Part shown: in pieces, positions 7,524 through 25,538 of the stretch
Layout: each line of letters begins with the position of its first letter
How positions within the stretch are numbered: position 1 is the stretch's first letter
Source of the DNA: an uncultured Bdellovibrionales bacterium
GTDB lineage: Bacteria > Patescibacteriota > Minisyncoccia > Moranbacterales > UBA2206
Assembly: GCA_964438025.1 (NCBI GenBank)
Contig: CAYTIK010000003.1
Span: 7,433-60,154, forward strand
Direction of reading: 5' to 3'
DNA length: 52,722 bases
The notes under the pieces: model-generated
What the model was told of the DNA's origin: nothing
Seen by the model: the letters and a program-made list of their open reading frames with translations, nothing else
Databases searched by the model: none
Position numbers and translations under genes: made by a program

Positions 7524-7546
7524 ATTTGTTTAAACTGCTTTTTTAA

Positions 7547-7891: not shown

Positions 7892-7922
7892 TTACCCGCT
7901 TTTCAATAGGCAGGGAAGAAAA

Positions 7923-8705: not shown

Positions 8706-8721
8706 TAACTGCATTAAAAAA

Positions 8722-12280: not shown

Positions 12281-12286
12281 AAGTCC

Positions 12287-13561: not shown

Positions 13562-13680
13562 ACTCGAACTCCGAATTTTCTAGCCAAAAATTTTCCCACA
13601 CTCGACGGCATCCTTGGAAAATTTTTGGAGAAAATTCAGGTTCTCAAACAATAATTTTTCGAAAATTTATATTCTTCAAT
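13552..13680 (+). repeat. Repeat family 2, copy A (MITE-like, structured)
   Basis: It aligns without gaps, with most positions identical by eye, to the reverse complement of 31842-31980. The internal stem is CCAAAAATTTT / AAAATTTTTGG. The left terminal repeat has decayed into the upstream CDS. Confidence 0.6.
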
Positions 13681-13705
13681 AGTTTTAAATGTATAGCAGT
13701 ATTAA

Positions 13706-14869
13706 ATGAAAAAAGAAATTAAAAAAATAATCAATTTAGAAAATTTTGTAGGAGCAATTCTAACTCTTTTGCCATTGTATTTGGTAAAATTTATTTTTTT
13801 AGATATACCTTTGAATCTTTTGGAAATAATGATCCTTGCCGCTTTGGGCTGGTGGTTATGGGAAAAAAAATTTGGCAATCCAGAATGGAAGAGTTTTTTA
13901 AAAAACAATAAAACACTTTTGGGGTTAGTAGATATTATATTATTAAGCTTATTGCTTTCCACCTTTTTGAGCGGCAATTTAAAAATAGGGCTGGGCATTA
14001 TTAAGGGCTGGTTTATTTTACCACTTATCTTGGCCATAATTTCCGTGGATATTTTTCGAAATGAAAAAATACGCGCCTTAGAATTTTTTTATGGCGGCGC
14101 GGTCGGCGTGGCTGTTTTGGCGCTGCTGAGTTATAGCTTTAATCAAATTACTTATGACGGACGGTTGGCGGGAATTTTCAATTCGCCTAATTATTTAGCT
14201 ATGTATCTGGCTCCGGCAATTATCGTCGGCGCCGTATTATTTCAGGAAAACAGGAAAAATTACGCTCTTTCCTTGGCAATTATTTCCTTAGCTTTGTATT
14301 TAACTTATTCTTTTACGGCCTGGGCGGCTGTCGTGGCGGTTTTGGCCGGGTTATTTTTCTTAAGCGGTCAGCAGAGAAAAAATAAAAAATTATTGGCGGG
14401 GATTTTAATCTTGGGCGGGCTGGTATTTTTATTGCAAACCAAGACAGTCAAACTAAACGCCTTGCTGGATTTAAATGCTCGCTCTTCGCTAGTTTCCCGT
14501 TCAATGATTTGGGAATCAGCCGGAAAAATTATTACGGACAATCCGTTTTGGGGCATCGGGGCGGGCAATTTCCAAGAGAAATATCTGGAATATCAGAAAT
14601 ATTTCCCGCCTTATTTAGAATGGGCCGTCCCTCATCCGCACAATCTCTATCTGGCTTTCTATTTATATTCAGGAATTACGGGCTTAGTCTCATTCCTGTT
14701 GCTGATTTTTATTTGGATTAAAAAAATTATTTTACAAAAAAAAGGCGCGGTGTTCCTGATGGCTATAGGAATAATAATATATTTTCTCTTGCACGGGTTG
14801 GCGGATACGACTTATTTTAAAAACGATCTGGCGGTGATATTTTGGTTAGCCTTCTTTTTGCCGCTCTAG
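13706..14869 (+). CDS. Second O-antigen ligase / Wzy-like membrane protein
   Basis: It is polytopic and has the PHPHNLYLAFYLYSGITG motif. It is a paralogue-like neighbour of 12287-13561. Confidence 0.7.
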   Translation: MKKEIKKIINLENFVGAILTLLPLYLVKFIFLDIPLNLLEIMILAALGWWLWEKKFGNPEWKSFLKNNKTLLGLVDIILLSLLLSTFLSGNLKIGLGIIKGWFILPLILAIISVDIFRNEKIRALEFFYGGAVGVAVLALLSYSFNQITYDGRLAGIFNSPNYLAMYLAPAIIVGAVLFQENRKNYALSLAIISLALYLTYSFTAWAAVVAVLAGLFFLSGQQRKNKKLLAGILILGGLVFLLQTKTVKLNALLDLNARSSLVSRSMIWESAGKIITDNPFWGIGAGNFQEKYLEYQKYFPPYLEWAVPHPHNLYLAFYLYSGITGLVSFLLLIFIWIKKIILQKKGAVFLMAIGIIIYFLLHGLADTTYFKNDLAVIFWLAFFLPL

Positions 14870-14923: not shown

Positions 14924-16087
14924 TTAGAGGCTTATCCTGTAAAGTTTTCCGTCAACCCGGTTGACAAAAAACAGCAGGCTCTCGTCGGAATTTAAGAAAA
15001 GATTCTTAGCGTCAACCTGAGCGCTGATTTTTCCCAATTCAATCAGGCGGGTTTTTTCTCCGGTTAAAATATTTATTTTCCAGAAAGTATCGGTGGTGAA
15101 GAATTTCTGGGAATAATAATCGTTGGGCAAGATAGAGTTTTCCGGAATGGAGCCGGGTAAGGCGTAAAAAACGGTTTGGCCGTCTTTAGACCAGGCACAT
15201 TTGGAAATAAAGGTTGGAATTTCCAGGTTTTTGTATTCCCCGCCCCTCTCGTTGATAGTTGCCAGCTGCATTTTTTTGCCGGCTTTTTCCACGGAATGGC
15301 TGACTAAAGCCAAGGCTCCTTGGCTGTTCCATAAAAAATTAGCGCCGAATTTACCCTGAAAAATAATCTTTTTTTCCGCCGAAAGGGGCGAGACGGAATA
15401 AAAAATGGATTCTTCGTAAGCGTCTGACATTTTCCAGAAGGAAACTAATCCGCCTTGAGGAAGGCTGGCGGCGAAAACTTGGCTGAAATCCAGGCCGGTC
15501 AATTTTTTCCAATTACTGCCGTCTGGGTCGGCAACATTAAGAGTCGATTCTTTTTTGGCCGGATCGAAATACCGATAAATAATTTTGTTGGAATTTTGCC
15601 AGATCGGATTGCCGAGATTTTGGCTTAGATGAGCTTCTTTTTTGGTTGTAAAATTAAAAGAAATCGTTTGCGGCCCGCTATGGCTGGAAGAAATTTTAAA
15701 AAGAGCCTGTTTTTTATCGGGCGACCAGAGGATTTCTGCCGATTCCGGCAATTCTTTTTTTAAGATTAAAGTGCGGATTTGGCCGTCAAAAGAAAGTTCA
15801 TAAAAACCCTGGTCTCTGCGCGAATAATATTTCAAGGCTGAACCATCTTCGGCTAAAGTTGGACCCAGGGCTGGCTCATTAGCAAGTAGGGCCATTTTTT
15901 CTGCTGCCGCTTTTTTTTCTGCCGCAGGGGGTGTTTCAGAAACAGCAGATGGAGCGGCTGGCTTTTCCGGCGCCGGCTTGAAGATGAGGATATAAATTCC
16001 TCCAAAAAATAAAAGCAGGGCCAGGCCCAGGGAAGAGAAAACAAAAACTTTTTTGAGGGTGGACATGAAAAATATTTTTAAGTGCAA
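14924..16087 (-). CDS. Membrane-anchored TolB-like beta-propeller protein
   Basis: An N-terminal TM segment and Ala/Pro-rich linker are followed by PD40-like repeats (DPDGSNWKKLT, SKDGQTVFY). The likely start is the ATG at 16066, because the track start at 16087 is a TTG. Confidence 0.5.
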   Translation of the reverse strand: MHLKIFFMSTLKKVFVFSSLGLALLLFFGGIYILIFKPAPEKPAAPSAVSETPPAAEKKAAAEKMALLANEPALGPTLAEDGSALKYYSRRDQGFYELSFDGQIRTLILKKELPESAEILWSPDKKQALFKISSSHSGPQTISFNFTTKKEAHLSQNLGNPIWQNSNKIIYRYFDPAKKESTLNVADPDGSNWKKLTGLDFSQVFAASLPQGGLVSFWKMSDAYEESIFYSVSPLSAEKKIIFQGKFGANFLWNSQGALALVSHSVEKAGKKMQLATINERGGEYKNLEIPTFISKCAWSKDGQTVFYALPGSIPENSILPNDYYSQKFFTTDTFWKINILTGEKTRLIELGKISAQVDAKNLFLNSDESLLFFVNRVDGKLYRISL

Positions 16088-16926
16088 TTACAGCCAGGAG
16101 CGCTAGCATGGATATGATTCCCTTCGTTAATAGCTTTGCCGCCACAGCTAATTACTACTTGGCTAATTTGTGTGTTAGACGCGGAACTTCCCTTAGTAGA
16201 ATAATCCACGGCGCAAGATTGGCCTCCTCCAGTCACTCCGCCATAATGGCAGGAACCTTTTTTATGGAAACAACAGTATGTTTGTTTATTGGCAGTGCAT
16301 TGGATCCAGCTAGGGTGGGTGGCGTAGCAATCAACTCCTCCATTGCCATCGGAAATAGAAGATATCTGGACTTTTTTATTTATTTTGGCTAATTCTCCAT
16401 TAACACAGCTTATAAGATCATTAAGCTTGTCAGAAGCGTCCTGGCATTGGCCGGGAACCTGGTTGGAGGTTTTTTCACAACCGGTTTTTTCCGTCGGCGG
16501 CAACTCTGGCGGAGGGCCGGGAACAGTTGAAGGAGTTGGCGGGACTGCGGCGGCCATTTTAATCTTAACTAGCTCCGGATTGATAACATAAAGGATTAAA
16601 TAGGCCAGGAGGGCTAAAATTAAGCCCACAATAGCATCAGTAATGAATGTTTTGGCTTTTTCCATGCTGGCGTTATTGCCGCCCGAAGCGGCATACATAT
16701 AGCCGCCGATGACAATCATAATCAGAGCGCAAATGCCCACCGTCCAAATGCCGAATTTATAGAGATTGGAAATAAAGACCGTAAAATCAGCGGTTTTTTC
16801 AAAACCAGGGAGGGTTTCCATGGGGGTGTAATCTAAATTAGCCGCCGAAACAATCAGCCAGGGAAAGATAAAAATAAGTAACAAAGTCAGAAAAATAAAA
16901 AATTTAGTTTTTAGTCGGCTAGTCAT
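16078..16926 (-). CDS. T4SS-pilin-like (VirB2/TrbC-type) N-terminal module fused by a Pro-rich linker to a Cys-rich putative LAS/M15-type zinc peptidase domain
   Basis: The N-terminus reads LDYTPMETLPGF...FGIWTVGICALIMIVIGGYMYAASGGN...AIVGLILALLAYLILYVINP. The linker reads VPPTPSTVPGPPPELPP. The C-terminal domain has 12 Cys and the ordered motifs ISSISDG, SCHYGG..CAVDYS and GNHIHAS. Confidence 0.6.
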   Translation of the reverse strand: MTSRLKTKFFIFLTLLLIFIFPWLIVSAANLDYTPMETLPGFEKTADFTVFISNLYKFGIWTVGICALIMIVIGGYMYAASGGNNASMEKAKTFITDAIVGLILALLAYLILYVINPELVKIKMAAAVPPTPSTVPGPPPELPPTEKTGCEKTSNQVPGQCQDASDKLNDLISCVNGELAKINKKVQISSISDGNGGVDCYATHPSWIQCTANKQTYCCFHKKGSCHYGGVTGGGQSCAVDYSTKGSSASNTQISQVVISCGGKAINEGNHIHASAPGCNCT

Positions 16927-19900
16927 TTTTTTGTGTTTGAGGAAATAAAGCGAAAAGAATCCAAATAGTGGCTAGCAGAACGAAAGCCGTCATTACTAGG
17001 CGGAAAAGAAAAGCAAAATAAGCCGGGACGCTGGAAATAAAGCTGGCCAAAATTTTCCCTTGGCCCTTTTTGGCTGTAGTTAATCCGTCAAGATCATCAG
17101 TTAAAGTAAAGTCGATGGTTTGTGAAAGTAGCCGTTCATAATATTCATCCAGCGCTACGCCCCAATAATCGCGCAAAGCTCTTTTGGTATGGCGGTCCTG
17201 GGTATAAATCCCCTCGGCTTTCAATGAAAAAGATGAATCTAAATCTTTCGTGCTGAAACTCGGCAAGGAATAACCCTCATCTTCTAGTAAAGTGCCGTTC
17301 CAGTACCATTTTATCGATAAATCTTCTGCAATGGGAAAAGGATAAGCGGCAAATTGCGCTAAGGCCAATTCAACAGAAGAATCTTTCAGAGCCAGAAATT
17401 CCGTCTGACTATAATCCGGATATTCTTTTGTTTCATTATCCAGATCGATATAGCTGCCCAGAGTTTTCGGCTTGCTGGTCGAGTGATCAGTCGAAGTGAT
17501 TTTAAAAGTCGGTTCGGAAACCAGGAAAGTTTTAGCCAGGCTGATTTTTCGGCCGGAAACCTGGCTAGTCGCCGTAAGATTTAAATTCAAAGCCGAGCCT
17601 TTGGTGGCTAAAACGGGGAAATAAATCAATTTGCCCGGTTCAAAATCTTCTGCGGAATAATTAGGAAGACGGTTACCGGCGGAATCATTGGCCAGATATT
17701 TGTAAGAAAGCGGTTGATTATTAATTGTCCAGAGAAAATCAAAAGTTCCTGAAGTTTCATTGTCTTCTAAAGATATGCCAGCTTCCACAGCGATGATTTC
17801 ATCCGGAGCGATTTGGCAAATCGCGGCGTCCACGAGAGCAGTCGGATCTTCAGCGCCAAGAATTTTGCAAATTTCCGTGCTGGGAGATAAGACCAAGGTA
17901 TCGCTTACAGCCGCTCTTTTTATAGTCAACTTATTGTTAAAAGAAGACAAAGGAATAATGACTTCGGTATGGCCTTTGCGGGTGCCGTCATCGGTGCCGC
18001 TAGTGGTTCTTTCGGAAACATCCAAGCGGACCTTTAAATATTTAGGCGGGATAGTTCCGTTGCAATAAGAATCGAAATTAGCTTTAAATTTAAAGTTAGG
18101 CAGGCCGGCGCCGATAGTCTGTTCCACTCCAATTAAATCTTCTTTGGTGATTTCACTGGTGGTAGTGGCAGTGCACATCCAATTTTCCGGATCGGGATCC
18201 GCCGAATCCCCGCCATAAACCCTCCATTGGTAATGTAAGGAGTCGTTCTTGGTGGAATTTTCAATCGTGGAAACCACATTAATCCAGTCGGCATTATCGC
18301 CTTCCGTGCCAGTATCATTAACCGGATTGTCCGGAGAAAAAGAAAGGCTGACTTCGATTTTTTCATTCTTGCCGCCGCCTTCAGTCGGGGTCAGCAGATT
18401 TTTTTCCAGCAAACATTCATTAAAATCATCCTTGGTCATCGTAAAAAGGCTGTCTTCCGGGTCAGTGTCTAAATCGGTTATTTCCTCTGCGATAGTAACG
18501 GTAGTATCACCAAGACTGATTGAGCAGGCAGCAGTAGCGGGGTCATCTTCTTCATCAAGAAAATCAGGATCGCAACAAGAGGCATTGTTAGTTACGGCCA
18601 CTTGGTATTTTACATCACTATCCACTTCTGATTGAGTAAAAAAACCATTAGAAACCAAATCAGCAGTATCATTAGCATTGCAAACAGCCGCATCCACTTC
18701 AAAAGCAGGATGAGTGGTGGTTGTAATGGTGACACTTCCTCCAGTGGGAGCTGTGCCTCCTGTTCCTCCAGTGGCCGATCCGTCATTTCTCCGGCGGGAA
18801 GGCAAAGTGATTTTTTCAGTTTTAGTAAATAGCTTGTAAGAAGTATTTTCATAACTGGAAATGTCAGATTGGCTCTTGTCAATGGTCTTGCGTTTTGTGA
18901 CTGTCCGTGTAAAAGTACAACCGTCCGGACAATCCGGCCATTCTTCCGGCGAAACTACTGTAGTATAATCATCCTCGCTTTCCCCCGGTTCTTCAATATA
19001 GTCTTCCAAGCTTCCGCAAGTATTATTGGGAACTGCCCACATAATTTTATAACTGGAATCTTCATACAAAGTCGAATCAAAAGAAATTCCTTCGACCACT
19101 ACCCCAATGCTGTCTCCGGCTTGATAAGTCCAGGTAAAATTTTGGGCACCCAATCCGGTTATATTAGCCTCATCTGGATGGCCAGATTCAGCTGTGTCTG
19201 GATCATCGGGATTGGTGCGCCAAAAATATTCCTCGCCTTTGTCAAAACCTTCATCACCAGTTTCATAACCCGGTGCATCCGGAAAAAGATGGAAACAGTC
19301 TTGAAAAATATATTGTTTACCAAGCTCGACATCGTGAAAATAACAATAGTTAGGTTTGCCTTGCTGGTCTTCGCCTCCCCGAATGGCCTTGTAAGCACTT
19401 TTTCCGTCAGACTTGGAATAATTGGCTTCAGTAAATTCAAAATCATTGCTGGCGTAAAGGCGCATCGCCTTGATTTTAAAATCTTCAACATCGACAATAT
19501 CTACTCCGTCATCATCGTAATCCTTATTCAGATTGCAACGAACCCGATTTTTTATGCCATTAACCTCTTTATCTAGATTTTCTTCCCGGCAATATTCCGG
19601 CTGGAGATACCAAGTGTAATAAAGCGACTTAGGCTGGTTGGAAAAATTGAGCGGCAGGGCGTTGGCGGTCAACTCTTCTCCCGGATTGGGATTGGTGGAA
19701 GAAAAGGTAATGGTTACCTGCGGATTAAGTTTTTTCAAGTTGGAGACATTTAAATATTGGATATTTTCTTTAATCATCTCTTCATCAATGCCATATTCAT
19801 CAAGCATGCACTTGATAGCATGGGAAGGACTAATAAATCCAATAAGGCCGCAATTGGAAGCCCAAACAATGCGAGCATTAACAAATACAAAAACAATAAT

Positions 19901-19942
19901 CAGAAGGATAATGAAGCGATTTTTAGGAGAAAAGAGAGGCAT
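16919..19942 (-). CDS. 1007-aa acidic surface protein with an N-terminal signal/TM and a C-terminal TM anchor; function unknown
   Basis: The N-terminus reads FIILLIIVFVFVNARIVWA and the C-terminus reads VPAYFAFLFRLVMTAFVLLATIWILFALF. It has D/E/T-rich low-complexity patches. It overlaps the pilin-fusion gene by 8 nt. Confidence 0.6.
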   Translation of the reverse strand: MPLFSPKNRFIILLIIVFVFVNARIVWASNCGLIGFISPSHAIKCMLDEYGIDEEMIKENIQYLNVSNLKKLNPQVTITFSSTNPNPGEELTANALPLNFSNQPKSLYYTWYLQPEYCREENLDKEVNGIKNRVRCNLNKDYDDDGVDIVDVEDFKIKAMRLYASNDFEFTEANYSKSDGKSAYKAIRGGEDQQGKPNYCYFHDVELGKQYIFQDCFHLFPDAPGYETGDEGFDKGEEYFWRTNPDDPDTAESGHPDEANITGLGAQNFTWTYQAGDSIGVVVEGISFDSTLYEDSSYKIMWAVPNNTCGSLEDYIEEPGESEDDYTTVVSPEEWPDCPDGCTFTRTVTKRKTIDKSQSDISSYENTSYKLFTKTEKITLPSRRRNDGSATGGTGGTAPTGGSVTITTTTHPAFEVDAAVCNANDTADLVSNGFFTQSEVDSDVKYQVAVTNNASCCDPDFLDEEDDPATAACSISLGDTTVTIAEEITDLDTDPEDSLFTMTKDDFNECLLEKNLLTPTEGGGKNEKIEVSLSFSPDNPVNDTGTEGDNADWINVVSTIENSTKNDSLHYQWRVYGGDSADPDPENWMCTATTTSEITKEDLIGVEQTIGAGLPNFKFKANFDSYCNGTIPPKYLKVRLDVSERTTSGTDDGTRKGHTEVIIPLSSFNNKLTIKRAAVSDTLVLSPSTEICKILGAEDPTALVDAAICQIAPDEIIAVEAGISLEDNETSGTFDFLWTINNQPLSYKYLANDSAGNRLPNYSAEDFEPGKLIYFPVLATKGSALNLNLTATSQVSGRKISLAKTFLVSEPTFKITSTDHSTSKPKTLGSYIDLDNETKEYPDYSQTEFLALKDSSVELALAQFAAYPFPIAEDLSIKWYWNGTLLEDEGYSLPSFSTKDLDSSFSLKAEGIYTQDRHTKRALRDYWGVALDEYYERLLSQTIDFTLTDDLDGLTTAKKGQGKILASFISSVPAYFAFLFRLVMTAFVLLATIWILFALFPQTQKND

Positions 19943-19946: not shown

Positions 19947-20606
19947 TTATTTAGTGAGGAAAATTATATAAGTATCTAAAGTGATTAAAAAAACAAAACT
20001 CGGCAGATAGGAAAAAAAGAAAGTCCGGCTTTTATAAGCCGTTAGTCCGCCTAAAAGGGAAATAACAACCATGGGCAATGTTTCAAAAAAATAAGAGTTG
20101 TAAATAAAAAGCGGGAAAAGGAAAACCGTGGATTGGATAAAGATTGACCAATAGCCCAGTTTTTCCCGCAAAGCGGCCAGCAGGAAGCCCTTGAAAAAAA
20201 TTTCTTGCGCTAAAAAGAGCAGATTGACCAGAACCAATTCGTAGAGCAGAAAATACCAGAAATTTATCTGTGCGAAAACCGGCAGGGTATAAATCTTCTC
20301 AAATCCAGTATAGCGGATTATGAGAAAAAAAAGAATTACTAAAAAAAGAAACATAATTCCTCCCCACCACAATCCGATTTTTTTGTTTTCCCAATTGACA
20401 CCAAAATCGCGGATATTTTTTTGCAGCACAAGTTTGACGTATAACCCGGGAATTACTAAAAGAAAAAAAGCATTTCTGGTGATGTTTTGCAGGTAATCGT
20501 CGGCCGGGAAATAATAAACCATGAAAAAGCAAAAAACCGCGACCAAAAAACTAGTGAGCGTTTCTTTCCATTGCCCGAATGTTTGTTTTTCGATGTTTAA
20601 AAACAT
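19947..20606 (-). CDS. CPBP/Abi-like polytopic membrane protein with degenerate catalytic motifs
   Basis: The QEIFFKGFLLAAL segment occupies the position of the EExxxR motif. Canonical His motifs are not evident. It lies 4 nt from the downstream gene. Confidence 0.4.
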   Translation of the reverse strand: MFLNIEKQTFGQWKETLTSFLVAVFCFFMVYYFPADDYLQNITRNAFFLLVIPGLYVKLVLQKNIRDFGVNWENKKIGLWWGGIMFLFLVILFFLIIRYTGFEKIYTLPVFAQINFWYFLLYELVLVNLLFLAQEIFFKGFLLAALREKLGYWSIFIQSTVFLFPLFIYNSYFFETLPMVVISLLGGLTAYKSRTFFFSYLPSFVFLITLDTYIIFLTK

Positions 20607-20612: not shown

Positions 20613-21107
20613 CTAATTATAAGCTGGTTCAACTTCGGCAGGATAACCTTTTTTATTTTCTTCAAGCGCTTTTTCCAGAGCGGCCGCTTTTCTTTCTTGA
20701 AGGGTAAAATAAAAAACTAAAACAACAACGAGGGTTTGTGTGGGGAAAAAATTTATTCCAAAAAACATTTCCAATGCCGAGCCAATAACTAAGGTGCCAT
20801 ATCTTTTTACTAAAAATCTAATTACCCCTTTTTTTAGCATGCCTGCTGATCTAGTGAGAAACATAACCATCCATATAATAAAAGCGACAAAAAAAGTAAT
20901 CAACATACCGATGACTGGCAATGAACCTAAGCCGGTAAAATCAGCAATATCTTTAAATATGGCTAGAGTTAAAGCAATGCCATACATAAAATCCATAAAA
21001 GGATCGATATACTCTCCCAAAGAGGAACGTTTAAAAAGAGCCATTATTTTTTCTTCGGCAGATTTAGCTGTTTTGTAAGTTGAGCGGATTTGGCTTAAAA
21101 CAGGCAT
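20613..21107 (-). CDS. Small polytopic membrane protein, unknown family
   Basis: It is 164 aa with about 4 hydrophobic segments. It is tightly packed between the VirB4 gene and the CPBP-like gene. Confidence 0.5.
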   Translation of the reverse strand: MPVLSQIRSTYKTAKSAEEKIMALFKRSSLGEYIDPFMDFMYGIALTLAIFKDIADFTGLGSLPVIGMLITFFVAFIIWMVMFLTRSAGMLKKGVIRFLVKRYGTLVIGSALEMFFGINFFPTQTLVVVLVFYFTLQERKAAALEKALEENKKGYPAEVEPAYN

Positions 21108-21119: not shown

Positions 21120-22952
21120 TTAAGCTTCTTCTTGGGCTAATTCTTTTTTGGCTTGTTCGATTTCCATAATTTGCGAAGGGTCGGTAGTAATAATTTGGTC
21201 TTCGCTGTAAGAAGCGACCACTTTGATGGCGACGTGCTTGGTGCCGGCGAAGAAAATGCCCTCGCCCACGTTGCTTTCCAGCAATAAAAATTTTTCCTGA
21301 TCGGTCAGATAAAAAGTTTCCGCGATGACATCGATGGCGGCCGGCGACTGCTTAAGCAGAATCTGGATGGAAGAATTGGTGACAATCGGTTTACCGAAGC
21401 GCGAAGACAAGAAATCGTTCACGTCTTGGGTGATGGTTGTGAGGCCGGTATAATATTTACGGCAGCGTTTCGCGATGCCGAAAAGGAAAGAAGCGGCATC
21501 GTCGTATTTCATCATCACCCACGCTTCATCCACCAAAACAATTCTTTTACGGATATTAGTGCGCATTTCATTCCAGATGAATTGCAAAACGACATACATG
21601 GCGATCGGGCGCATTTCTTCTTCCATATCGCGGATATTGAAAACTACCATTGGATTGTCGATATTGATATTAGTAAGGTTATTCAAAAAGCCGGCAAAGA
21701 TGCCTTCCGTGTATTTTTCCAGCCGGGTGGCCAAATCTTCCCCGCCTTCCATATTGCGCAGCACTTGGTAAAGGTCGGACATCGTGGGAAAATCTTCCTT
21801 ATTCAGAGCGTTTAGATTGGCCTGGGCGGTGATATCTTTGATTTCATAAGTTTCTCGGATGGAGCGATCCAGCACGGACTCTTCTTCCGGCGTAATACTG
21901 CCCAGCATCAGATGCAAGAGGCCGATAAGTCCGGCAATATTGTTGCGCAAAATATCGGCCGGATCCTCGTCTTCGCCGACTTTCGGCAGATCAAAGGGGT
22001 TGAGATGATTTTTGGAATTGAGAGAAATTTTAAAGAAAGTTCCGCCGACCGTATCGCACAAATGCTTGTATTCATTTTCCGGGTCGATAATAATGACTTC
22101 CGTGCCGATCATCAGGGAACGCAAAACTTCCAATTTGACCAGATAGCTTTTGCCGGCGCCGGATTTGGCGAAGACCACCATATTGCCGTTTTCCATGCCA
22201 AAACGGTCGAAAATCACCAAGCTGTTGTTGTGGCGATTGATACCATAGAGGATGCCTTCATCGCTGGAAAGATTAGAAGAAACAAAAGGAAAAGTGGTTG
22301 ATAAGGGTGAAGAATCCATGCTAGTACCGACATCCAGTTCGTCATTAGCTAAAGGCAGAGACGAATTGAAACCCTGTTCAGTTTTAAAAACCGCCGGCTT
22401 GGTATAGACCAGTTGGGCTTCCAAAATAGCCATAATCGCCTTAACTTGTTTGTCCAGCTCTTTTTCATCCTGGGCATAAACAGTGATATATAAGCCAAAG
22501 CGGAAGAATTTTTCCGTCCCTTGTTGGAGCTTGTCGCGCAGCTCATCCACATCGCGCATAGCGGTTTCCAAAACCGGATCGCGCACCATGCCGCGCTCGG
22601 ATTCAATATGGATTTGTGACTGGACTTGTGTGGCGGTCTTGCGCAGGTTTTTCAATATCGTATTGGTATCGATCGGATGGACAAACATGGAAATATCCAT
22701 CGGCATATCGATGTTGATGATGGGAGAGAACCAGTTACTATGCAGATAGCGGGGATAAGTGATAACGAAAATGGTCTGGGCCAAAGTCTCGCCCACGCGG
22801 ATATAACGGGGCGTGATTTTAACAGCCGCCGGTGCGATCAAATCTTGCAGCTTAGCCAAGCCTTCCTGATAATATTTTTCACTGAGGAGCACCTCATCAG
22901 TCGGCAGTTTTTCCTGAGGACTAGCGTTTTTCTTTTTTAAAAAATCCAGCAT
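21120..22952 (-). CDS. virB4: VirB4/TrbE-family T4SS ATPase (central and C-terminal part)
   Basis: The Walker A motif is VVFAKSGAGKSYLVK and the Walker B motif is RIVLVDEAW. The upstream VirB4-type segment is YIRVGETLAQTIFVITYPRYLHSNWF. The gene is visibly more GC-rich than its neighbours. Confidence 0.85.
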   Translation of the reverse strand: MLDFLKKKNASPQEKLPTDEVLLSEKYYQEGLAKLQDLIAPAAVKITPRYIRVGETLAQTIFVITYPRYLHSNWFSPIINIDMPMDISMFVHPIDTNTILKNLRKTATQVQSQIHIESERGMVRDPVLETAMRDVDELRDKLQQGTEKFFRFGLYITVYAQDEKELDKQVKAIMAILEAQLVYTKPAVFKTEQGFNSSLPLANDELDVGTSMDSSPLSTTFPFVSSNLSSDEGILYGINRHNNSLVIFDRFGMENGNMVVFAKSGAGKSYLVKLEVLRSLMIGTEVIIIDPENEYKHLCDTVGGTFFKISLNSKNHLNPFDLPKVGEDEDPADILRNNIAGLIGLLHLMLGSITPEEESVLDRSIRETYEIKDITAQANLNALNKEDFPTMSDLYQVLRNMEGGEDLATRLEKYTEGIFAGFLNNLTNINIDNPMVVFNIRDMEEEMRPIAMYVVLQFIWNEMRTNIRKRIVLVDEAWVMMKYDDAASFLFGIAKRCRKYYTGLTTITQDVNDFLSSRFGKPIVTNSSIQILLKQSPAAIDVIAETFYLTDQEKFLLLESNVGEGIFFAGTKHVAIKVVASYSEDQIITTDPSQIMEIEQAKKELAQEEA

Positions 22953-23026: not shown

Positions 23027-23713
23027 TTATTTTAAATCCAAATTACGCGTGTCTTCCAGCTCGGTCAGGTTAAAAACGTTGGAATTGTAGGAATTATACA
23101 GCAGTTCGATCAGCTCTTTAGTCTTAAGCTGGACCATTTTTATTCCGATGCCGGATAGGCTGGCCATAATATGATCCAGGCGCTGAAAAAGCTGATTGCG
23201 GCAAGTTTCAAAAAGCTCTCTTTTTTCCACGATGCTTTTTCTGGGATTGAATAAGGAGCTTAAGCTGTCGAAAATTCCTTTTTCCCGGTTTTCAATGGAG
23301 GAAAAAGGCACGATGATGTAGAAATTCTTATCCATGATATTGGAAACGGAAACCAGCTGCTTGATGAAATTTTTGTATTCGGAGATTTGGAAGCGCAGCA
23401 GTTCGCTCGCTTGGTCTTTTTCTTTGCGTTCGATAAAATTGAGATATTTTTCAATATTGATCTTACGAGAGTTGATTAAGATTTGGATGGGAAAATCCAG
23501 GGAATTGAGGAAATTTTTATACTGCTGGATGATGGCTTCCTGCTCCTGAGTGGACTTCAAGTCGTAATTGATGGCGGAAACGTTCAAGACGCCGCGCAGC
23601 GTGCCATTTTTCAGCACGATGACATCATCCCTAACTTCCGCTACGTCCACAAACTGCTGGCTGGTGGCGCTGGAACTGGGCTTGGTAATTTTTTTCGAAT
23701 TTAATATTTCCAT
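23027..23713 (-). CDS. VirB4 N-terminal-domain-like protein (split from the ATPase ORF)
   Basis: The pattern FVDVAEVRDDVIVLKNGTLRGVLNVSAINYDLKSTQEQEAIIQQYKNFLNSLDFPIQILI resembles the N-terminus of Gram-positive VirB4/TrsE/TcpF-type proteins. The combined length is 228+610 aa, about that of a full VirB4. Confidence 0.55.
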   Translation of the reverse strand: MEILNSKKITKPSSSATSQQFVDVAEVRDDVIVLKNGTLRGVLNVSAINYDLKSTQEQEAIIQQYKNFLNSLDFPIQILINSRKINIEKYLNFIERKEKDQASELLRFQISEYKNFIKQLVSVSNIMDKNFYIIVPFSSIENREKGIFDSLSSLFNPRKSIVEKRELFETCRNQLFQRLDHIMASLSGIGIKMVQLKTKELIELLYNSYNSNVFNLTELEDTRNLDLK

Positions 23714-24123
23714 GTAGTTGTCGGATTATCCAGCAAGCTGGAAATTTCTTGGATCTTGTTTTGATTAAGAGCTTTTTTCCGGAGATTTTCTCCAGCCGCT
23801 GGTTTTTTAGCAGGAGCTTTTTTGAGAATTAATCCGGATTGGATGTCTCTTTTCCAAACGTAAATCTTAGGGCGGAAGCCGAAAAAAACCATCGAGGTGA
23901 CAAATTTAAGGAAAGATTGTCCGTTAGGACGGTAAAAAGCGAAAGCGCCAGCCAGTGCCAAGACAAAAAGAGCGGCAATCACAAAATAAGCAAAATCCAG
24001 CAAATTCCACAGGACCAGCAAGATGCCGCCGGCGCCGAATAACCAGCCTAATTGTTTGGCGGTGAGAGGTCCGACGATCTTGTCTTCGGTGTCGATAAAT
24101 TGGGGAACATTGTACATTGCCAT
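23701..24123 (-). CDS. PrgI / VirB3-like small membrane protein
   Basis: The N-terminus YNVPQFIDTEDKIVGPLTAKQLGWL is followed by two TM helices and a basic tail (FRPKIYVWKRD). It overlaps the next gene by 13 nt. Confidence 0.55.
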   Translation of the reverse strand: MAMYNVPQFIDTEDKIVGPLTAKQLGWLFGAGGILLVLWNLLDFAYFVIAALFVLALAGAFAFYRPNGQSFLKFVTSMVFFGFRPKIYVWKRDIQSGLILKKAPAKKPAAGENLRKKALNQNKIQEISSLLDNPTTTWKY

Positions 24124-24167: not shown

Positions 24168-25538
24168 TTAGTGTTGATCTATATTTTTTAAATCAACCAC
24201 ATTTTTCGGCAAATTCTGCGGCTTGCCCTGTGAAATGCGCTCCGCGCCCCGGCTTCCAGCCGGGATTTCACGGGGTAAAGCAGGAGTGGGTAATGTTTTT
24301 TCGTAAGGCAATTTCTGGCGGTAGGAAAATTCCATGGAATTAATATTTTTTTGTTCTGTTTCCGGTGCGGCCGCCGGGCGGAATTGGTCAGTCAGGCCTT
24401 TGGGCAAATTGGAACTTGCTGGAGTTGTATCAGTCCCGCCCGCCCCACTACGCCAGTCCGCATTGCTACGCGAAGCGTTGCTGGCGGGCGTAGCGTTGTG
24501 GGCGGGGAAAATGATTTGCTGGGTGTTTTTATTGAGAGTGATGGGAGAATTTTCATCGAAGGATTTCAAGATATAAGCCAATTTTTGCCTTTCCGGAGCG
24601 GATAAATTTTTAGCGTTGGCTCCTTGGAAAAGATATTGGGAGCGCGCCATGGACGCGTGTTTTTCATAGCCTAGGTTGAAAGTATAATCCGCCAGCCAAT
24701 TTTTGATGGAAGGCCGGACGGGGTAAGGAAAACTCCGCAAACTGATTTTATTGGAAGTAATTAATTGCTCCCCTACTTCCGAATAAATCCGTAGAGCTTC
24801 GGAAAGGGGCAATTTAGTCAGACTAGCCTCTTCCCGGAAAGAAGCTGGTGCTTTTGTAAAAGGTTGAGAAGACGGACGTTGATAACGGGATTGAGGTTGA
24901 AATTGAGATACTGATGGCGCCGATGAGAAATCGGTATTTGCACCTACCCTATTCAAGTTTTTAAGCATCTCCACGGCATCAAAAATGTCTATAAGCTCGG
25001 TTGCAATGAGCGTGTCATACGTATGCAAAATTGATTTGAGGATGGCTTTTTCCATTTCGCCAAGCAGAACCGCGTCCTTGTCCGTCAAAAAGAAATTAAT
25101 AATATCTTGGTCCTCCCTTTCATCAACATTGTATTGCTGGTCGAATTTTTGTAGCCATTCTCCAATGGTAAAATTACCTAATTTTTCTTGGTTTTCCAAA
25201 ATCGCTTGCTTGATGATTTTCCGTTGGTTATTTTTTTCAGTCATTCCCTGAAAGACGTAGCGAGCCGTCAGCCTTTGCTCAAAAGGCACATCAATTTTAA
25301 AAAATACCAAGAGATGATTTTTGATAATCTCTACGGCCTCTGAATCGGGAAGGTCGAGAAAATCGACAACTTGGAGCTTGATTACGGAGTCATTGTAAGC
25401 GTTGCCCAGAGAAGATCTTTCTTCCGATAAAAAAGAAGCAAGCTTTCTTAAAAGTTTACTAGCCGCAGCGACATCAATGCGATCGATGATGTCATCAACT
25501 TGTTTAGCTAAAATAGTTGTTGTATTTTTACTAATCAT
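24168..25538 (-). CDS. 456-aa soluble protein of unknown function, translationally coupled to the VirB6-like gene
   Basis: It has an ATGA overlap with 25535-27901 and no TM segments. A helical N-terminal half is followed by a Q/P/S-rich linker. The C-terminal tail includes translated repeat sequence. Confidence 0.55.
   Translation of the reverse strand: MISKNTTTILAKQVDDIIDRIDVAAASKLLRKLASFLSEERSSLGNAYNDSVIKLQVVDFLDLPDSEAVEIIKNHLLVFFKIDVPFEQRLTARYVFQGMTEKNNQRKIIKQAILENQEKLGNFTIGEWLQKFDQQYNVDEREDQDIINFFLTDKDAVLLGEMEKAILKSILHTYDTLIATELIDIFDAVEMLKNLNRVGANTDFSSAPSVSQFQPQSRYQRPSSQPFTKAPASFREEASLTKLPLSEALRIYSEVGEQLITSNKISLRSFPYPVRPSIKNWLADYTFNLGYEKHASMARSQYLFQGANAKNLSAPERQKLAYILKSFDENSPITLNKNTQQIIFPAHNATPASNASRSNADWRSGAGGTDTTPASSNLPKGLTDQFRPAAAPETEQKNINSMEFSYRQKLPYEKTLPTPALPREIPAGSRGAERISQGKPQNLPKNVVDLKNIDQH
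24248..24279. repeat. Short-motif family copy inside a CDS
   Basis: The hairpin CCCGGC-ttcca-GCCGGG is followed by ATTTCACGGGGTAAA. On the minus strand it is translated as LPREIPAGSRG. Confidence 0.45.

What the first reader, a model, noticed from the sequence alone, without database searches (positions are those of the whole stretch)
16078..16926. T4SS-pilin-like module fused to a 12-cysteine putative LAS/M15 zinc peptidase domain
What the sequence shows:
- Residues 1 to about 125 have the hallmark layout of the VirB2-like pilins common in CPR and Firmicutes: LDYTPMETLPGF, then FGIWTVGICALIMIVIGGYMYAASGGN, then AIVGLILALLAYLILYVINP.
- A Pro-rich linker (VPPTPSTVPGPPPELPP) follows.
- The C-terminal 130 aa contain 12 Cys and the ordered motifs ISSISDG, SCHYGG...CAVDYS and GNHIHAS.

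Established knowledge: LAS enzymes (peptidase M15, D-Ala-D-Ala carboxypeptidase and L-Ala-D-Glu peptidase folds) bind zinc through an S-x-H-x-x-G-x-A-x-D pattern plus an H-x-H pattern in that order. T4SSs normally carry a separate peptidoglycan hydrolase such as VirB1, PrgK or TcpG.

Inference: a pilin-anchored, disulfide-rich cell-wall peptidase would place a lytic activity on the secretion filament or membrane stub. It could act on the cell's own wall or on a host's wall.
Basis: partly seen in the sequence, partly recalled or inferred. Interest (0 to 1): 0.7.

Follow-up and report, generated by a model that had tools for sequence, protein, structure and literature searches.

The report
Pilin-anchored zinc cell-wall peptidase
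A gene in the type IV secretion operon of an ultra-small (CPR, Moranbacteria-like) bacterium joins a pilin-like membrane hairpin to a disulfide-rich, Hedgehog/M15-type zinc peptidase domain, which is probably this machine's missing cell-wall-cutting enzyme and belongs to a large family that no domain library yet describes.

Summary
It has four parts:
- a Sec signal peptide;
- a VirB2-like two-helix hairpin (Pfam T4SS_pilin, 26.9 bits against a cut-off of 26.6);
- a disordered Pro-rich linker;
- a 135-aa C-terminal domain with 12 Cys.

Pfam, NCBIfam and PHROGs do not recognise the C-domain. Three lines of evidence place it in the LAS (Hedgehog/DD-peptidase, M15) fold:
- Family profiles hit only Hedgehog N-domains in the PDB (E 0.013; hhalign 90%).
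- A pLDDT-93 model best matches M15 endolysins, VanX and LdcB, though weakly (TM about 0.45-0.55).
- The residues aligned to the Shh zinc and catalytic residues (H221, H227, D241, E268, H271, H273) are 96-100% conserved in 189 relatives.

The domain departs from the canon: the spacing is H-x13-D, not H-x6-D.

The family has at least 703 clusters at 50% identity. Nearly all are CPR, and about 90% are fused to the same pilin module. In relatives that module instead carries SLT, SLT_3 or NlpC/P60 domains. The gene sits in a conserved VirB6/PrgI/TrsD/VirB4 operon near dnaA that has no other recognisable hydrolase.

Best reading: a T4SS-tethered peptidoglycan peptidase that does the job of VirB1. 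This is a new variant of a known kind. Enzymatic activity and pilus incorporation are untested.

The parts
16078..16926 (-). Complete gene for the 282-aa fusion protein (stop codon at 16078-16080). Its start overlaps the upstream gene by 8 nt. Its end overlaps the downstream gene by 10 nt.
   Evidence: ORF list. The same 8-nt overlap with the upstream gene occurs in homologous loci L001-L004.
16843..16926 (-). Sec-type signal peptide, residues 1-28: basic n-region, hydrophobic core, VSA|AN cleavage-like site.
   Evidence: Read directly from the sequence. Predicted helix 3-26 in the model. The cleavage site itself is inferred.
16558..16842 (-). VirB2-like pilin module, residues 29-123. It comprises the conserved YTPMExxPGF head, helix 48-80, the short basic loop SGGNNASMEKAK, helix 85-115 and the INPxLV tail.
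   Evidence: Pfam PF18895 T4SS_pilin, residues 48-115, 26.9 bits. AF2 pLDDT 86-93. Foldseek hit 8dfu, the conjugative pilin of A. pernix, TMt 0.67. The module recurs in 245 of 261 collected relatives.
16486..16557 (-). Pro-rich flexible linker, residues 124-147.
   Evidence: Sequence AAVPPTPSTVPGPPPELPPTEKTG. pLDDT <50 for residues 125-139. Length and sequence vary among homologues.
16081..16485 (-). C-terminal LAS-type (Hedgehog/DD-peptidase-like) putative zinc peptidase domain with 12 Cys, residues 148-282.
   Evidence: AF2 pLDDT 93.4, pTM 0.87. PDB profile hits are Hedgehog-N only. hhalign 90%. Foldseek hits to M15 and Hedgehog-like proteins. 703 clusters in the 1.84-billion-protein representative library.
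16345..16365 (-). ISSISDG strand motif, residues 188-194. S190 and D193 are 98% conserved.
   Evidence: Its role is unknown. By position it may be the counterpart of the substrate-binding strand upstream of the zinc motif in M15 enzymes (inference).
16204..16272 (-). First active-site block, C219-x-H221-x3-S225-C226-H227-Y-G-G ... S237-x-A239-x-D241. H227 and D241 are the putative zinc ligands. H221 is the counterpart of Shh H134/135.
   Evidence: H221, H227 and D241 are 100% conserved in 189 sequences. They align to Shh H134, H140 and D147. The spacing is H-x5-H in 181 of 188 sequences and H-x13-D in 116 of 185.
16102..16125 (-). Second active-site block, E268-G-N-H271-I-H273-A-S275. E268 is the putative general base and H273 the third zinc ligand.
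   Evidence: Conservation: E268 96%, H271 99%, H273 100%. These residues align to Shh E176, H180 and H182.
14924..16087 (-). Downstream, translationally overlapped gene of 387 aa. It has an N-terminal TM helix and a weak TolB-like beta-propeller signal. It is a conserved partner of the fusion gene.
   Evidence: TIGR02800 at E 0.033 only. The gene lies directly downstream on the same strand in at least 25 of 35 loci that have a homologue, across several CPR classes.
16919..19942 (-). Upstream 1007-aa protein with a signal-like N-terminus and a C-terminal TM helix. It matches no known domain and is syntenic in all close relatives.
19947..20606 (-). 219-aa polytopic membrane protein with a weak Rce1/CPBP intramembrane-protease signal. 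It is a candidate processing protease.
   Evidence: NF041647 CPBP at E 0.076. Orthologues in L005 and L006 carry PF02517 Rce1-like (weak).
21120..22952 (-). VirB4-family T4SS ATPase.
   Evidence: PF19044 at 6e-29, plus AAA_10 and CagE_TrbE_VirB.
23027..24123 (-). Genes for TrsD/TraC-like protein (23027-23713) and PrgI/VirB3-like protein (23701-24123).
   Evidence: NF041427 TrsD at 5e-8. PF12666 PrgI at 4e-10.
25535..27901 (-). VirB6-like polytopic membrane protein (CD3337/EF1877 family; orthologues carry TrbL_3).
   Evidence: NF046089 at 2e-5. PF19590 TrbL_3 in orthologues.

Best explanation

Proposed path of the protein:
1. A Sec signal peptide exports the N-terminus.
2. The VirB2-like hairpin then inserts with its short basic loop in the cytoplasm.
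3. The C-terminal domain therefore ends up outside the cell, on a flexible Pro-rich tether.

Proposed chemistry. The C-terminal domain has a LAS (Hedgehog/DD-peptidase, MEROPS clan MD) fold stabilised by disulfides. H227, D241 and H273 hold one zinc ion. E268, helped by H221 and H271, activates the zinc-bound water that cleaves a peptide or amide bond in a peptidoglycan stem or cross-link.

Proposed role. The pilin-like module docks the enzyme at, or in, the T4SS. Wall cleavage is thereby confined to the site where the machine crosses the cell's own wall, and possibly the wall of the host cell it attaches to. The protein thus does the job that VirB1, PrgK or TcpG do elsewhere.

Shown here: the architecture, the fold class, the conservation of the catalytic constellation, the operon context and the modular swapping with other wall hydrolases.

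Inferred: zinc binding, catalysis, the substrate bond, the topology, and docking to the T4SS.
For: Architecture:
- Searches show signal peptide + hairpin + low-confidence linker + a confident C-domain (pLDDT 93, pTM 0.87).

Fold and active site:
- Family profiles hit only Hedgehog N-domains in the PDB: 23 of 23 hits for A3 (best E 0.013) and 23 of 24 for A2.
- hhalign against ShhN gives 90% probability. It places H221, H227, D241, E268, H271 and H273 on Shh H134, H140, D147, E176, H180 and H182. These are the zinc ligands and catalytic residues named in PMC6027127 (mouse numbering H141, D148, H183 and E177).
- The best whole-domain Foldseek hits are all LAS peptidoglycan peptidases. In the PDB: LysECD7 8q2g and Ply500 2vo9 (prob 0.85), LysB4 6akv (TMq 0.50), VanX 1r44, and LdcB 4jid/4mph. 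In BFVD: a Hedgehog-annotated microvirus protein (prob 0.99, E 0.035), MepK, M15B and DD-carboxypeptidases.
- These residues are 96-100% conserved in 189 sequences.

Extracytoplasmic location and disulfides:
- The Cys count is even in 176 of 189 domains.
- C150 and C161 appear and disappear together (63/1/7/118).

Functional class from domain swapping:
- Among 70 relatives that share only the N-module, 17 carry SLT, 10 carry SLT_3 lysozyme-like and 5 carry NlpC/P60 domains.

Context:
- The gene lies on the same strand as VirB6-like, PrgI, TrsD and VirB4 genes and overlaps its neighbours.
- The gene order is conserved at 38-66% protein identity.
- No other hydrolase domain is detectable in the operon.

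Precedent:
- In the only genetically tested CPR T4SS, SEML1_0007 lies next to virB4, is essential by Tn-seq, and has a C-terminal ECOD 'Hedgehog/DD-peptidase' domain (supplement of PMC10633639).
- PMC12102498 notes that VirB1 homologues are rarely linked to virB4 in CPR.
Against: - No curated family matches the C-domain: Pfam at E<=10, NCBIfam at E<=1 and PHROGs at E<=10 all find nothing relevant.
- Every structural or profile match is statistically weak: Foldseek E >= 0.035, TM 0.44-0.55, PDB profile E >= 0.013.
- The canonical H-x6-D spacing is replaced by H-x13-D. I could not inspect model coordinates, so I could not check that the three ligands converge on one site.
- Hedgehog, the closest relative by sequence, has the same residues but no generally accepted peptidase substrate.
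- The N-module profile finds no solved pilin by sequence. The Pfam pilin score is only just over threshold.
- No CPR T4SS pilus has been seen.
- Some conserved Cys (C219, C226, C279, C281) could form a metal site rather than disulfides.
Confidence: 0.6

Rival explanations
1. It is a true polymerising pilin, and the enzyme rides on the filament. The hairpin assembles into a VirB2-type pilus or a short stub. The C-termini of VirB2/TraA-type pilins face outward in solved pili (my recollection of those structures, not checked here). The LAS domains would therefore decorate the filament or its tip and digest the HOST cell wall on contact, opening a path for uptake or delivery during epibiotic growth.
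For: - This is the only protein with a pilin module in the whole 52.7-kb window. Family HMMs run with --max find no second hit. If this T4SS has a pilin, it is this protein.
- The module is well conserved (Y33, E37, G74, N116 and P117 are invariant). That is more than a plain membrane anchor would need.
- The long flexible linker would let the domain clear a filament surface.
- CPR T4SS and its pilin genes are essential for epibiotic growth (PMC10633639).
Against: - A 135-aa globular domain on every subunit is hard to reconcile with the tight helical packing of known conjugative pili.
- Known VirB2-like pilins of CPR are short: about 127-144 aa from the gene lengths of SEML1_0017-0019 and 0024.
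- No filament evidence exists for Moranbacteria.
- The genome outside the window was not examined for short pilins.
Confidence: 0.17
2. It is a non-catalytic Hedgehog-like binding module. The zinc site is structural or ligand-binding, as is argued for the 'pseudo-active site' of Hedgehog. The domain would act as an adhesin that recognises peptidoglycan stems or host-surface glycans and anchors the T4SS to its target without cutting.
For: - The closest sequence relatives are Hedgehog N-domains. Their peptidase activity is disputed (PMC6027127).
- The insertion in the H-x6-D loop could reshape the cleft.
Against: - The general-base Glu (96%) and both auxiliary His (99-100%) are conserved along with the three ligands. 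Lineages that lose catalysis typically lose these: Drosophila Hh has H-x6-T, H-x-Y and Val in place of Glu (PMC6027127).
- The sister fusions carry bona fide hydrolase domains (SLT, NlpC/P60), not binding domains.
Confidence: 0.12
3. It is a pro-pilin with a removable C-terminal domain. The protein would be cleaved in the Pro-rich linker, either by the neighbouring CPBP/Rce1-like membrane protease or by the LAS domain acting on itself. Cleavage would release a mature short pilin and a free soluble peptidase. C-terminal trimming of the RP4 pilin TrbC is the precedent (my recollection, not checked here).
For: - A CPBP/Rce1-like gene is conserved two genes upstream. It stays with the fusion gene even where VirB4 is elsewhere (L005).
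- The linker is disordered and variable.
- Near-identical N-modules carry different C-domains (P0020 is 87% identical over the N-module only). This shows that the linker is a modular joint.
Against: - No conserved cleavage motif is visible in the linker.
- The CPBP assignment is weak (E 0.076).
- There are no proteomic data.
Confidence: 0.08
4. It is not a LAS domain at all. It would be a Cys/His-rich metal-cluster or redox domain whose resemblance to the LAS motifs is coincidental.
For: - The domain holds 12 Cys and 5 His in 135 residues.
- All homology statistics are weak.
- No curated family matches.
Against: - Three independent libraries converge on LAS proteins only: PDB sequences, PDB structures and BFVD structures.
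- Six functional residues align in order with the right local spacing (H-x5-H, E-x2-H-x-H).
- Seven of the 12 Cys are variable and Cys counts are even, as expected for disulfides.
Confidence: 0.03

Closest known systems
Hedgehog N-terminal signalling domain and bacterial 'Hh/DD-peptidase' domains (MEROPS M15A-like; ECOD 'Hedgehog/DD-peptidase')
   Same: - These are the only PDB proteins found by family profiles. hhalign gives 90%.
- The block H-x5-H-Y-x-G...A-V-D...E-x(2-3)-H-[IV]-H-x-S-V aligns residue for residue with the Shh zinc ligands and catalytic Glu/His.
- Bacterial Hh-like domains are likewise C-terminal parts of larger membrane-associated proteins (PMC6027127).
   Different: - Only about 52-60 columns align.
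- The H-to-D spacing is x13 rather than x6.
- The Hedgehog calcium-site region does not align, so whether a calcium site is present is unassessed.
- There are 4-6 conserved and up to 12 total Cys.
- The Pfam HH_signal model does not match.
- Foldseek against the PDB ranks M15 endolysins above Hedgehog.
Peptidase M15 cell-wall enzymes: phage L-Ala-D-Glu endopeptidases (Ply500 2vo9, LysB4 6akv, LysECD7 8q2g), VanX (1r44), VanY-like LdcB (4jid/4mph), MepK
   Same: - These are the best whole-domain structural matches (TM 0.44-0.55).
- They share the same order of His, Asp, (Glu/Asp) and His ligands on a small alpha/beta sandwich.
- Their substrates are peptidoglycan stems, which fits the T4SS context and the sister SLT and NlpC/P60 fusions.
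   Different: - Sequence identity is 9-17%. No Pfam M15, VanY or M15_3/4 hit appears even at E<=10.
- The zinc loop carries an insertion.
- The domain is disulfide-rich.
- The bond specificity cannot be inferred.
T4SS-associated peptidoglycan hydrolases (VirB1; PrgK of pCF10 with LytM+SLT+CHAP; TcpG; CwlT; TraG of pIP501)
   Same: - They are encoded inside the T4SS operon and exported.
- They are expected to open the wall locally for the machine.
- PrgK already includes a LAS-clan (LytM/M23) domain (my recollection, not checked here). PMC12102498 describes the SLT+CHAP type.
   Different: - Those enzymes are anchored by a single TM helix or are soluble, and they use SLT, CHAP, NlpC/P60 or M23 folds.
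- Here the anchor is the pilin-like hairpin itself, and the catalytic domain is a Hedgehog/M15-like fold.
SEML1_0007 of Ca. Southlakia epibionticum ML1 (Saccharibacteria T4SS locus)
   Same: - It lies next to virB4 in a CPR T4SS cluster.
- Its C-terminal domain (residues 951-1105) is classed as ECOD Hedgehog/DD-peptidase.
- It is essential for epibiotic growth by Tn-seq (supplement of PMC10633639).
- Saccharibacterial ORFs of 900 aa or more that end in the present C-domain exist (L077).
   Different: - It is 1113 aa, and no pilin module is reported for it.
VirB2/TrbC/TraA conjugative pilins and CPR 'T4SS_pilin' (PF18895) arrays
   Same: - It has a signal peptide, two hydrophobic helices and a short basic loop.
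- It matches PF18895.
- It is encoded near virB4, as reported for 1,135 CPR assemblies (10.1101/2025.01.22.634366, the preprint of PMC12102498).
- Its fold resembles an archaeal conjugative pilin.
   Different: - It is about twice the size of the S. epibionticum pilins, with an added globular domain.
- It is a single copy here rather than an array.
- Polymerisation is untested.

Membership tests
LAS / Hedgehog-DD-peptidase fold zinc peptidases (MEROPS clan MD: M15, M74, Hedgehog) | Zinc ligands His, Asp, His in that order, in an H-x(3-6)-D motif followed by an H-x-H motif (PMC6027127). | tested here: inconclusive
   The order and identity of the residues are met and are 100% conserved (H227, D241, H273; H271-x-H273). 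The spacing is x13 (range about 9-19), never x6.
LAS / Hedgehog-DD-peptidase fold zinc peptidases (MEROPS clan MD: M15, M74, Hedgehog) | Catalytic general base (Glu or Asp) two to three residues before the H-x-H motif, plus an auxiliary His upstream of the first ligand. | tested here: met
   E268 is 96% and H221 100% conserved. H-x5-H spacing occurs in 181 of 188 sequences, as in Shh H134-H140. The residues align to Shh E176 and H134.
LAS / Hedgehog-DD-peptidase fold zinc peptidases (MEROPS clan MD: M15, M74, Hedgehog) | Fold: a central antiparallel sheet with helices on one face and the metal cleft on the other. | tested here: inconclusive
   The confident model (pLDDT 93) has 2-3 helices and a 4-5-stranded sheet. 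The best whole-domain Foldseek hits are all LAS enzymes, but with TM 0.44-0.55 and E 0.035-3. Coordinates could not be inspected.
LAS / Hedgehog-DD-peptidase fold zinc peptidases (MEROPS clan MD: M15, M74, Hedgehog) | Significant sequence-profile similarity to a member. | tested here: met
   hmmsearch of profile A3 against the PDB returned 23 hits, all Hedgehog N-domains, best E 0.013. hhalign against ShhN gave probability 90%, E 1.6e-6. The significance is modest.
LAS / Hedgehog-DD-peptidase fold zinc peptidases (MEROPS clan MD: M15, M74, Hedgehog) | Zinc binding and metal-dependent peptidase activity. | not testable with these tools
   Needs protein expression, metal analysis and muropeptide assays.
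Curated Pfam M15-type or Hedgehog families (VanY, Peptidase_M15_2/3/4, Peptidase_M74, HH_signal) | Score above the family's gathering threshold. | tested here: not met
   No such family is listed even at E<=10 for the full protein. NCBIfam and PHROGs also find nothing. The domain is therefore not filed under any of them.
VirB2-like T4SS pilin (Pfam PF18895 T4SS_pilin) | Match to the family model at or above the gathering score. | tested here: met
   26.9 bits against 26.6, E 5e-6. 64 of 70 N-module relatives also match.
VirB2-like T4SS pilin (Pfam PF18895 T4SS_pilin) | Signal peptide followed by two hydrophobic helices joined by a short basic loop. | tested here: met
   Sequence. AF2 helices 48-80 and 85-115 with the loop SGGNNASMEKAK. 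Foldseek hit 8dfu at TMt 0.67. However, no PDB hit by sequence profile.
VirB2-like T4SS pilin (Pfam PF18895 T4SS_pilin) | Encoded in a T4SS gene cluster with VirB4. | tested here: met
   VirB4 starts 4.2 kb upstream on the same strand, in a conserved gene order.
VirB2-like T4SS pilin (Pfam PF18895 T4SS_pilin) | Small protein that polymerises into an extracellular filament. | not testable with these tools
   The size criterion is not met (282 aa with an extra domain). Polymerisation needs microscopy or biochemistry.
VirB1-type T4SS wall hydrolase (functional class) | Lytic transglycosylase, lysozyme-like or CHAP catalytic domain. | tested here: not met
   No SLT, CHAP or NlpC/P60 hit in this protein. 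Sister proteins with the same N-module do carry them. The protein is an analogue of VirB1, not a member.

The most novel reading that the evidence does not exclude
The fusion protein is itself the T4SS filament subunit, or a tip or minor subunit, of Moranbacteria-like CPR bacteria. These episymbionts would then build an 'armed' conjugative-type pilus whose surface carries zinc peptidase domains. In sister proteins the surface would carry lytic transglycosylase or NlpC/P60 domains instead. The filament would enzymatically drill through the host's cell wall. That would explain why the T4SS and its pilins are essential for the epibiotic lifestyle even though relaxases and coupling proteins are missing.
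Probability: 0.15. Interest if true: 0.85.

Novelty: new variant of a known kind. Interest (0 to 1): 0.6.

Why it matters
- **A candidate for the missing VirB1.** CPR/Patescibacteria T4SSs are essential for growth on host bacteria, yet their mechanism is unknown. A recent survey (PMC12102498) found that VirB1-type wall hydrolases are rarely linked to virB4 in these bacteria. This finding offers a concrete candidate: a large, uncurated LAS-type domain family. It has at least 703 clusters at 50% identity and occurs in most CPR classes, including Saccharibacteria. It is almost always welded to the pilin-like module.
- **The module is a general carrier.** In relatives the same module carries SLT, lysozyme-like and NlpC/P60 domains. 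The hairpin therefore looks like a general carrier for wall hydrolases.
- **The question becomes testable.** One can ask whether CPR bacteria cut their own wall or their host's wall at the T4SS. The domain can be expressed. Four point mutants are obvious. Fusion-bearing genes occur in Saccharibacteria, the one CPR group with a genetically tractable member.
- **Link to Hedgehog evolution.** The finding adds a deep bacterial branch to the Hedgehog/DD-peptidase family, which bears on the origin of the Hedgehog ligand.
- **Annotation gap.** None of Pfam, NCBIfam and PHROGs recognises the domain.

Tried and rejected
- **Curated libraries.** The single-sequence searches of the C-domain or the whole protein found nothing relevant: Pfam at E<=10, NCBIfam at E<=1, PHROGs at E<=10, and PDB phmmer. 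Only family profiles gave signal.
- **Full-length model.** The Foldseek search with the full-length model was dominated by helical-hairpin noise such as histidine kinases. I repeated it with a domain-only model.
- **The search for related loci.** I replaced it with a degenerate DNA pattern.
- **N-module against the PDB.** The N-module profile returned no hit. The pilin assignment therefore rests on Pfam, fold, context and literature usage.
- **Gene fusion or fission with the upstream gene.** I tested whether the upstream 1007-aa protein is the split-off N-terminal part of the long C-domain-bearing proteins, as in SEML1_0007-like architectures. Neither phmmer nor an 8-sequence family HMM found it on any ORF that carries the C-domain. 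There is no support for this idea.
- **Paralogue C-domains.** I tested whether the C-domains of close paralogues (P0020 type) are detectably homologous to this one. hhalign aligned only 9 columns at 10% probability, and Pfam was silent. Their canonical STHYSGKAAD...DHIHV motifs are an eye-level observation only.
- **Cys as an Fe-S or Cys4 site.** I judged this less likely than disulfides, because Cys counts are even, seven of the 12 Cys are variable, and the predicted topology is extracytoplasmic. It is not excluded for C219, C226, C279 and C281.
- **Unrelated paper.** A 2026 preprint on a 'novel pilus system in CPR' concerns Ig-fold donor-strand pilins and is unrelated.

Full report
**1. The observation**

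The interval 16078-16926 holds one ORF of 282 aa with an ATG start, on the minus strand. The plus strand of the same interval is broken by stops. Residues 148-282 contain exactly 12 Cys, and the first 147 residues contain one. The gene start overlaps the end of a 1007-aa upstream gene by 8 nt. Its end overlaps the start of a 387-aa downstream gene by 10 nt. This tight packing recurs in homologous loci.

**2. Anatomy**

AlphaFold2 was run on a 41-sequence alignment. It predicts:
- an N-terminal helix (residues 3-26, the signal peptide);
- an extended conserved segment (YTPMExxPGF);
- two long helices (48-80 and 85-115) joined by the basic loop SGGNNASMEKAK;
- a segment with pLDDT <50 (125-139, the Pro-rich linker);
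- a compact C-terminal domain.

Modelled alone with an 86-sequence alignment, the C-domain reaches pLDDT 93.4 and pTM 0.87.

The likely topology follows from a cleaved signal peptide and a hairpin whose Lys-rich loop stays inside. The C-domain is then extracytoplasmic (inference). Two observations fit an exported, disulfide-bonded domain:
- The Cys count is even in 176 of 189 family members.
- C150 and C161 appear or vanish together (63/1/7/118).

**3. The N-terminal module**

Evidence for a pilin-like module:
- Pfam T4SS_pilin (PF18895) matches residues 48-115 at 26.9 bits, just over the 26.6 cut-off. 64 of 70 relatives of the module also match.
- The full-length model's best small-protein match is the conjugative pilin of Aeropyrum pernix (8dfu; TMt 0.67, rmsd 3.6 A over 75 columns, prob 0.89, E 1.6).
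- The literature treats PF18895 proteins next to virB4 as VirB2-like pilins of CPR T4SSs (10.1101/2025.01.22.634366 = PMC12102498; PMC10633639; PMC12857230).

Limits:
- A profile of the module finds no solved structure by sequence.
- No CPR T4SS filament has been demonstrated.

So 'pilin-like hairpin' is shown, and 'filament subunit' is not. In this 52.7-kb window it is the only such module. Two family HMMs, run with filters off, found no second copy.

**4. The C-terminal domain**

Single-sequence searches are blind to it (Pfam, NCBIfam, PHROGs, PDB). Family profiles are not:
- A 27-sequence profile hit 24 PDB sequences at E<=10. Of these, 23 are Hedgehog N-domains (best E 0.06).
- An 86-sequence profile hit 23, all Hedgehog (best E 0.013).
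- hhalign of that profile against the human ShhN sequence gave 90% probability.

The aligned columns, with human Shh numbering on the right:

| This protein | Human Shh |
|---|---|
| H221 | H134 |
| H227 | H140 |
| D241 | D147 |
| E268 | E176 |
| H271 | H180 |
| H273 | H182 |

Roelink (PMC6027127) names H141, D148 and H183 (mouse numbering) as the zinc ligands. He names E177 as the residue that activates the catalytic water. He defines the Hh/DD-peptidase motif as H-x6-D plus H-x-H.

Foldseek with the domain model agrees on the fold class, though only weakly:
- In the PDB, the best whole-domain matches are all M15-type wall peptidases. They are LysECD7 8q2g and Ply500 2vo9 (E 0.12, prob 0.85, TM 0.44-0.48), LysB4 6akv (TMq 0.50), VanX 1r44, and LdcB 4jid/4mph.
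- In BFVD, the top hit is a microvirus protein annotated as Sonic-hedgehog-like (E 0.035, prob 0.99). It is followed by MepK, M15B, DD-carboxypeptidases and an endolysin.

Three independent libraries thus converge on one clan, although no single statistic is strong.

**5. Conservation**

A profile search of 1.84 billion representatives found 703 clusters at E<=1e-3 and 445 at E<=1e-10. Conservation in 189 domain sequences:

| Residues | Conservation |
|---|---|
| H221, H227, D241, H273 | 100% |
| H271 | 99% |
| E268 | 96% |
| S190, D193 | 98% |
| C174, C219, C226, C261, C279 | 98-99% |

Spacings:
- H221-x5-H227 occurs in 181 of 188 sequences, the same as Shh H134-H140.
- E-x2-H-x-H is modal.
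- The H-to-D spacing is x13 in 116 of 185 sequences (range about 9-19), never the canonical x6.

A 7-residue insertion therefore splits the S-x-H-x-x-G / A-x-D motif. This defines a distinct variant. It is also one reason the curated models miss the domain.

**6. Architecture across the family**

- Of 191 collected proteins with the C-domain, 175 also carry the N-module.
Of those loci, 112 encode the full domain, and 90 of 113 ORFs also encode the module.
- The record titles span Moranbacteria, Paceibacterota, Yanofsky-, Doudna-, Nomura-, Falkow-, Azam-, Kuenen-, Vogel-, Komeili- and Gribaldobacteria, and many Saccharibacteria.
- Conversely, 70 relatives share only the N-module. Among them, 17 carry SLT, 10 carry SLT_3 (lysozyme-like) and 5 carry NlpC/P60 domains.
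- Some N-modules are 67-87% identical to this one yet carry a different C-domain (P0020, P0026, P0028). The linker is therefore a recent recombination joint.

A carrier whose recognisable cargos are all peptidoglycan hydrolases is strong indirect evidence that this cargo is one too. About half of the cargos remain unassigned.

**7. Genomic context**

The following genes all lie on the minus strand:

| Coordinates | Product | Evidence |
|---|---|---|
| 25535-27901 | VirB6-like | NF046089; orthologues carry TrbL_3 |
| 24168-25538 | unknown, 456 aa | no hit |
| 23701-24123 | PrgI/VirB3 | |
| 23027-23713 | TrsD-like | |
| 21120-22952 | VirB4 | |
| 20613-21107 | unknown, 164 aa | no hit |
| 19947-20606 | weak CPBP/Rce1-like membrane protein | |
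| 16919-19942 | 1007-aa protein | no known domain |
| 16078-16926 | the fusion gene | this report |
| 14924-16087 | membrane-anchored protein with a weak TolB-propeller signal | |

- This gene order is kept in loci whose fusion proteins are 42-66% identical (L001-L004, L006).
- In L005 (38% identical) the last four genes stay together while VirB4 lies elsewhere.
- The propeller gene lies directly downstream in at least 25 loci from several CPR classes.
- The cluster lies 8-21 kb from dnaA/dnaN and rnpA/yidC/jag. This matches the origin-proximal placement noted for CPR T4SSs.
- No other gene of the operon shows a hydrolase domain.
- The nearest other wall enzyme is a G5-DPBB protein at 32886-33845, outside the cluster.

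**8. Precedent**

In Ca. Southlakia epibionticum ML1 the T4SS locus is essential for epibiotic growth. SEML1_0007 (1113 aa) lies next to virB4 and is scored essential. Its residues 951-1105 are classed as ECOD 'Hedgehog/DD-peptidase' in the authors' supplementary table. The CPR T4SS survey notes that VirB1 homologues are seldom linked to virB4. It suggests that other enzymes take over that role. I found no paper that describes a pilin-hydrolase fusion or this domain family. The consecutive Pfam accession numbers of T4SS_pilin and SLT_3 hint that curators saw one such architecture; this is my inference.

**9. Mechanism and rivals**

- **Best supported (0.6).** A T4SS-tethered, extracytoplasmic zinc peptidase cuts peptidoglycan peptides where the machine crosses the wall. 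It is an analogue of VirB1, with the pilin-like hairpin as its docking or anchoring device.
- **Armed pilus (0.17).** The protein is a real filament subunit that displays the enzyme to the host wall.
- **Non-catalytic binding module (0.12).** This is disfavoured because the base Glu and the auxiliary His residues are kept. Drosophila Hh lost them.
- **Pro-pilin cleaved in the linker (0.08).** The neighbouring CPBP-like protease could do the cutting.
- **No LAS relationship (0.03).**

**10. Verdict**

- The gene is on the minus strand.
- By sequence the domain is closest to the Hedgehog branch.
- It belongs to no curated M15 family.
- It carries a split zinc motif.

It is a new variant of known kinds (LAS peptidase; T4SS wall hydrolase; VirB2-like pilin). 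It is widespread and uncurated, and it opens a testable route into how CPR T4SSs deal with cell walls.

Noticed in passing
window 14924-16087 (-): This 387-aa protein has an N-terminal TM helix and a weak TolB-like beta-propeller signal (TIGR02800, E 0.033). It overlaps the fusion gene's end by 10 nt. A homologue lies directly downstream of the pilin-LAS gene in at least 25 loci from Moranbacteria, Saccharibacteria, Nomura-, Vogel- and Doudnabacteria. This conserved gene pair has no known function.
   Followed up: partly
window 19947-20606 (-); L005 6067-6696; L006 6645-7292: A 219-aa polytopic membrane protein shows weak CPBP/Rce1-like intramembrane-protease similarity. It is conserved two genes upstream of the fusion. 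It stays with the block 'large protein - pilin-LAS - propeller' even where VirB4 is elsewhere (L005). It may be a pilin or linker processing protease.
   Followed up: partly
window 16919-19942 (-): This 1007-aa protein has a signal-like N-terminus, many Cys/Asp/Thr-rich stretches and a C-terminal TM helix. It matches no Pfam or NCBIfam family and is syntenic in all close relatives (894-1081 aa). I tested whether it is fused to the LAS domain in other lineages and found no evidence.
   Followed up: partly
P0020, P0029, P0034 (relatives; N-module 69-87% identical (P0034, P0029, P0020)): Their different C-terminal domains show, by eye, the canonical LAS motifs S-T-H-Y-S-G-K-A-A-D (H-x6-D) and D/N-H-[IV]-H-V-[AS]-C. 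P0040 and P0093 look similar. The pilin module may therefore carry at least two distinct LAS-type variants. Pfam and hhalign did not confirm this.
   Followed up: partly
L059 (Altiarchaeota MAG), L125 (archaeon MAG), L126 (Altiarchaeales ex4484_2): The same C-domain (HMM E 1e-27 to 6e-34) occurs near the N-terminus of ORFs of 312 aa (L125, cut at the locus edge), 492 aa (L126) and 642 aa (L059, also cut), without a pilin module, in archaeal MAGs. This is either horizontal transfer with a different architecture or misbinning.
   Followed up: no
L014, L015, L030, L032, L033, L062, L068, L072, L116 and others: Contigs titled 'uncultured Gammaproteobacteria' or 'Bdellovibrionales' (TPA_asm MAGs) carry typical CPR pilin-LAS genes. 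L030 is the 32,451-bp contig of P0009, which is 63% identical to the window protein. The taxonomic labels of these records look unreliable.
   Followed up: no
window 3361-9201: This is the replication-origin neighbourhood: a thioredoxin-reductase-like gene, dnaN (4372-5538, -) and dnaA (5794-7245, -), divergent from rnpA (7547-7891), yidC (7923-8705) and jag/KhpB (8722-9201). The T4SS operon therefore starts about 8 kb from dnaA. This matches the origin-proximal placement reported for CPR T4SSs.
   Followed up: yes
window 9207-14869 (+): A cell-surface polysaccharide block lies between the origin genes and the T4SS operon: a Wzx-like flippase, two GT2 glycosyltransferases and two Wzy_C/O-antigen-ligase-like proteins. 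It is syntenic in all six homologous loci (L001-L006).
   Followed up: partly
window 29120-30172 (-) and 32886-33845 (-): A 350-aa protein with bacterial TSP3 (calcium-binding) repeats lies just upstream of the T4SS cluster. A DUF348-G5-DPBB (RlpA/3D-like lytic transglycosylase) protein lies further on. The latter is the only other recognisable wall-active enzyme among the window genes scanned (3.4-33.8 kb).
   Followed up: no
L030 3799-7263; contigs of P0070/P0093 and P0110/P0118: Some genomes hold two or more pilin-module fusions with different cargos on one contig. In L030, about 1.5 kb separates the pilin-LAS gene from the propeller gene, room for the second fusion (P0033, weak SLT_3 hit) that maps to the same contig. 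These are short 'arrays' of armed pilin-like genes, reminiscent of the VirB2 arrays described for Saccharibacteria.
   Followed up: no
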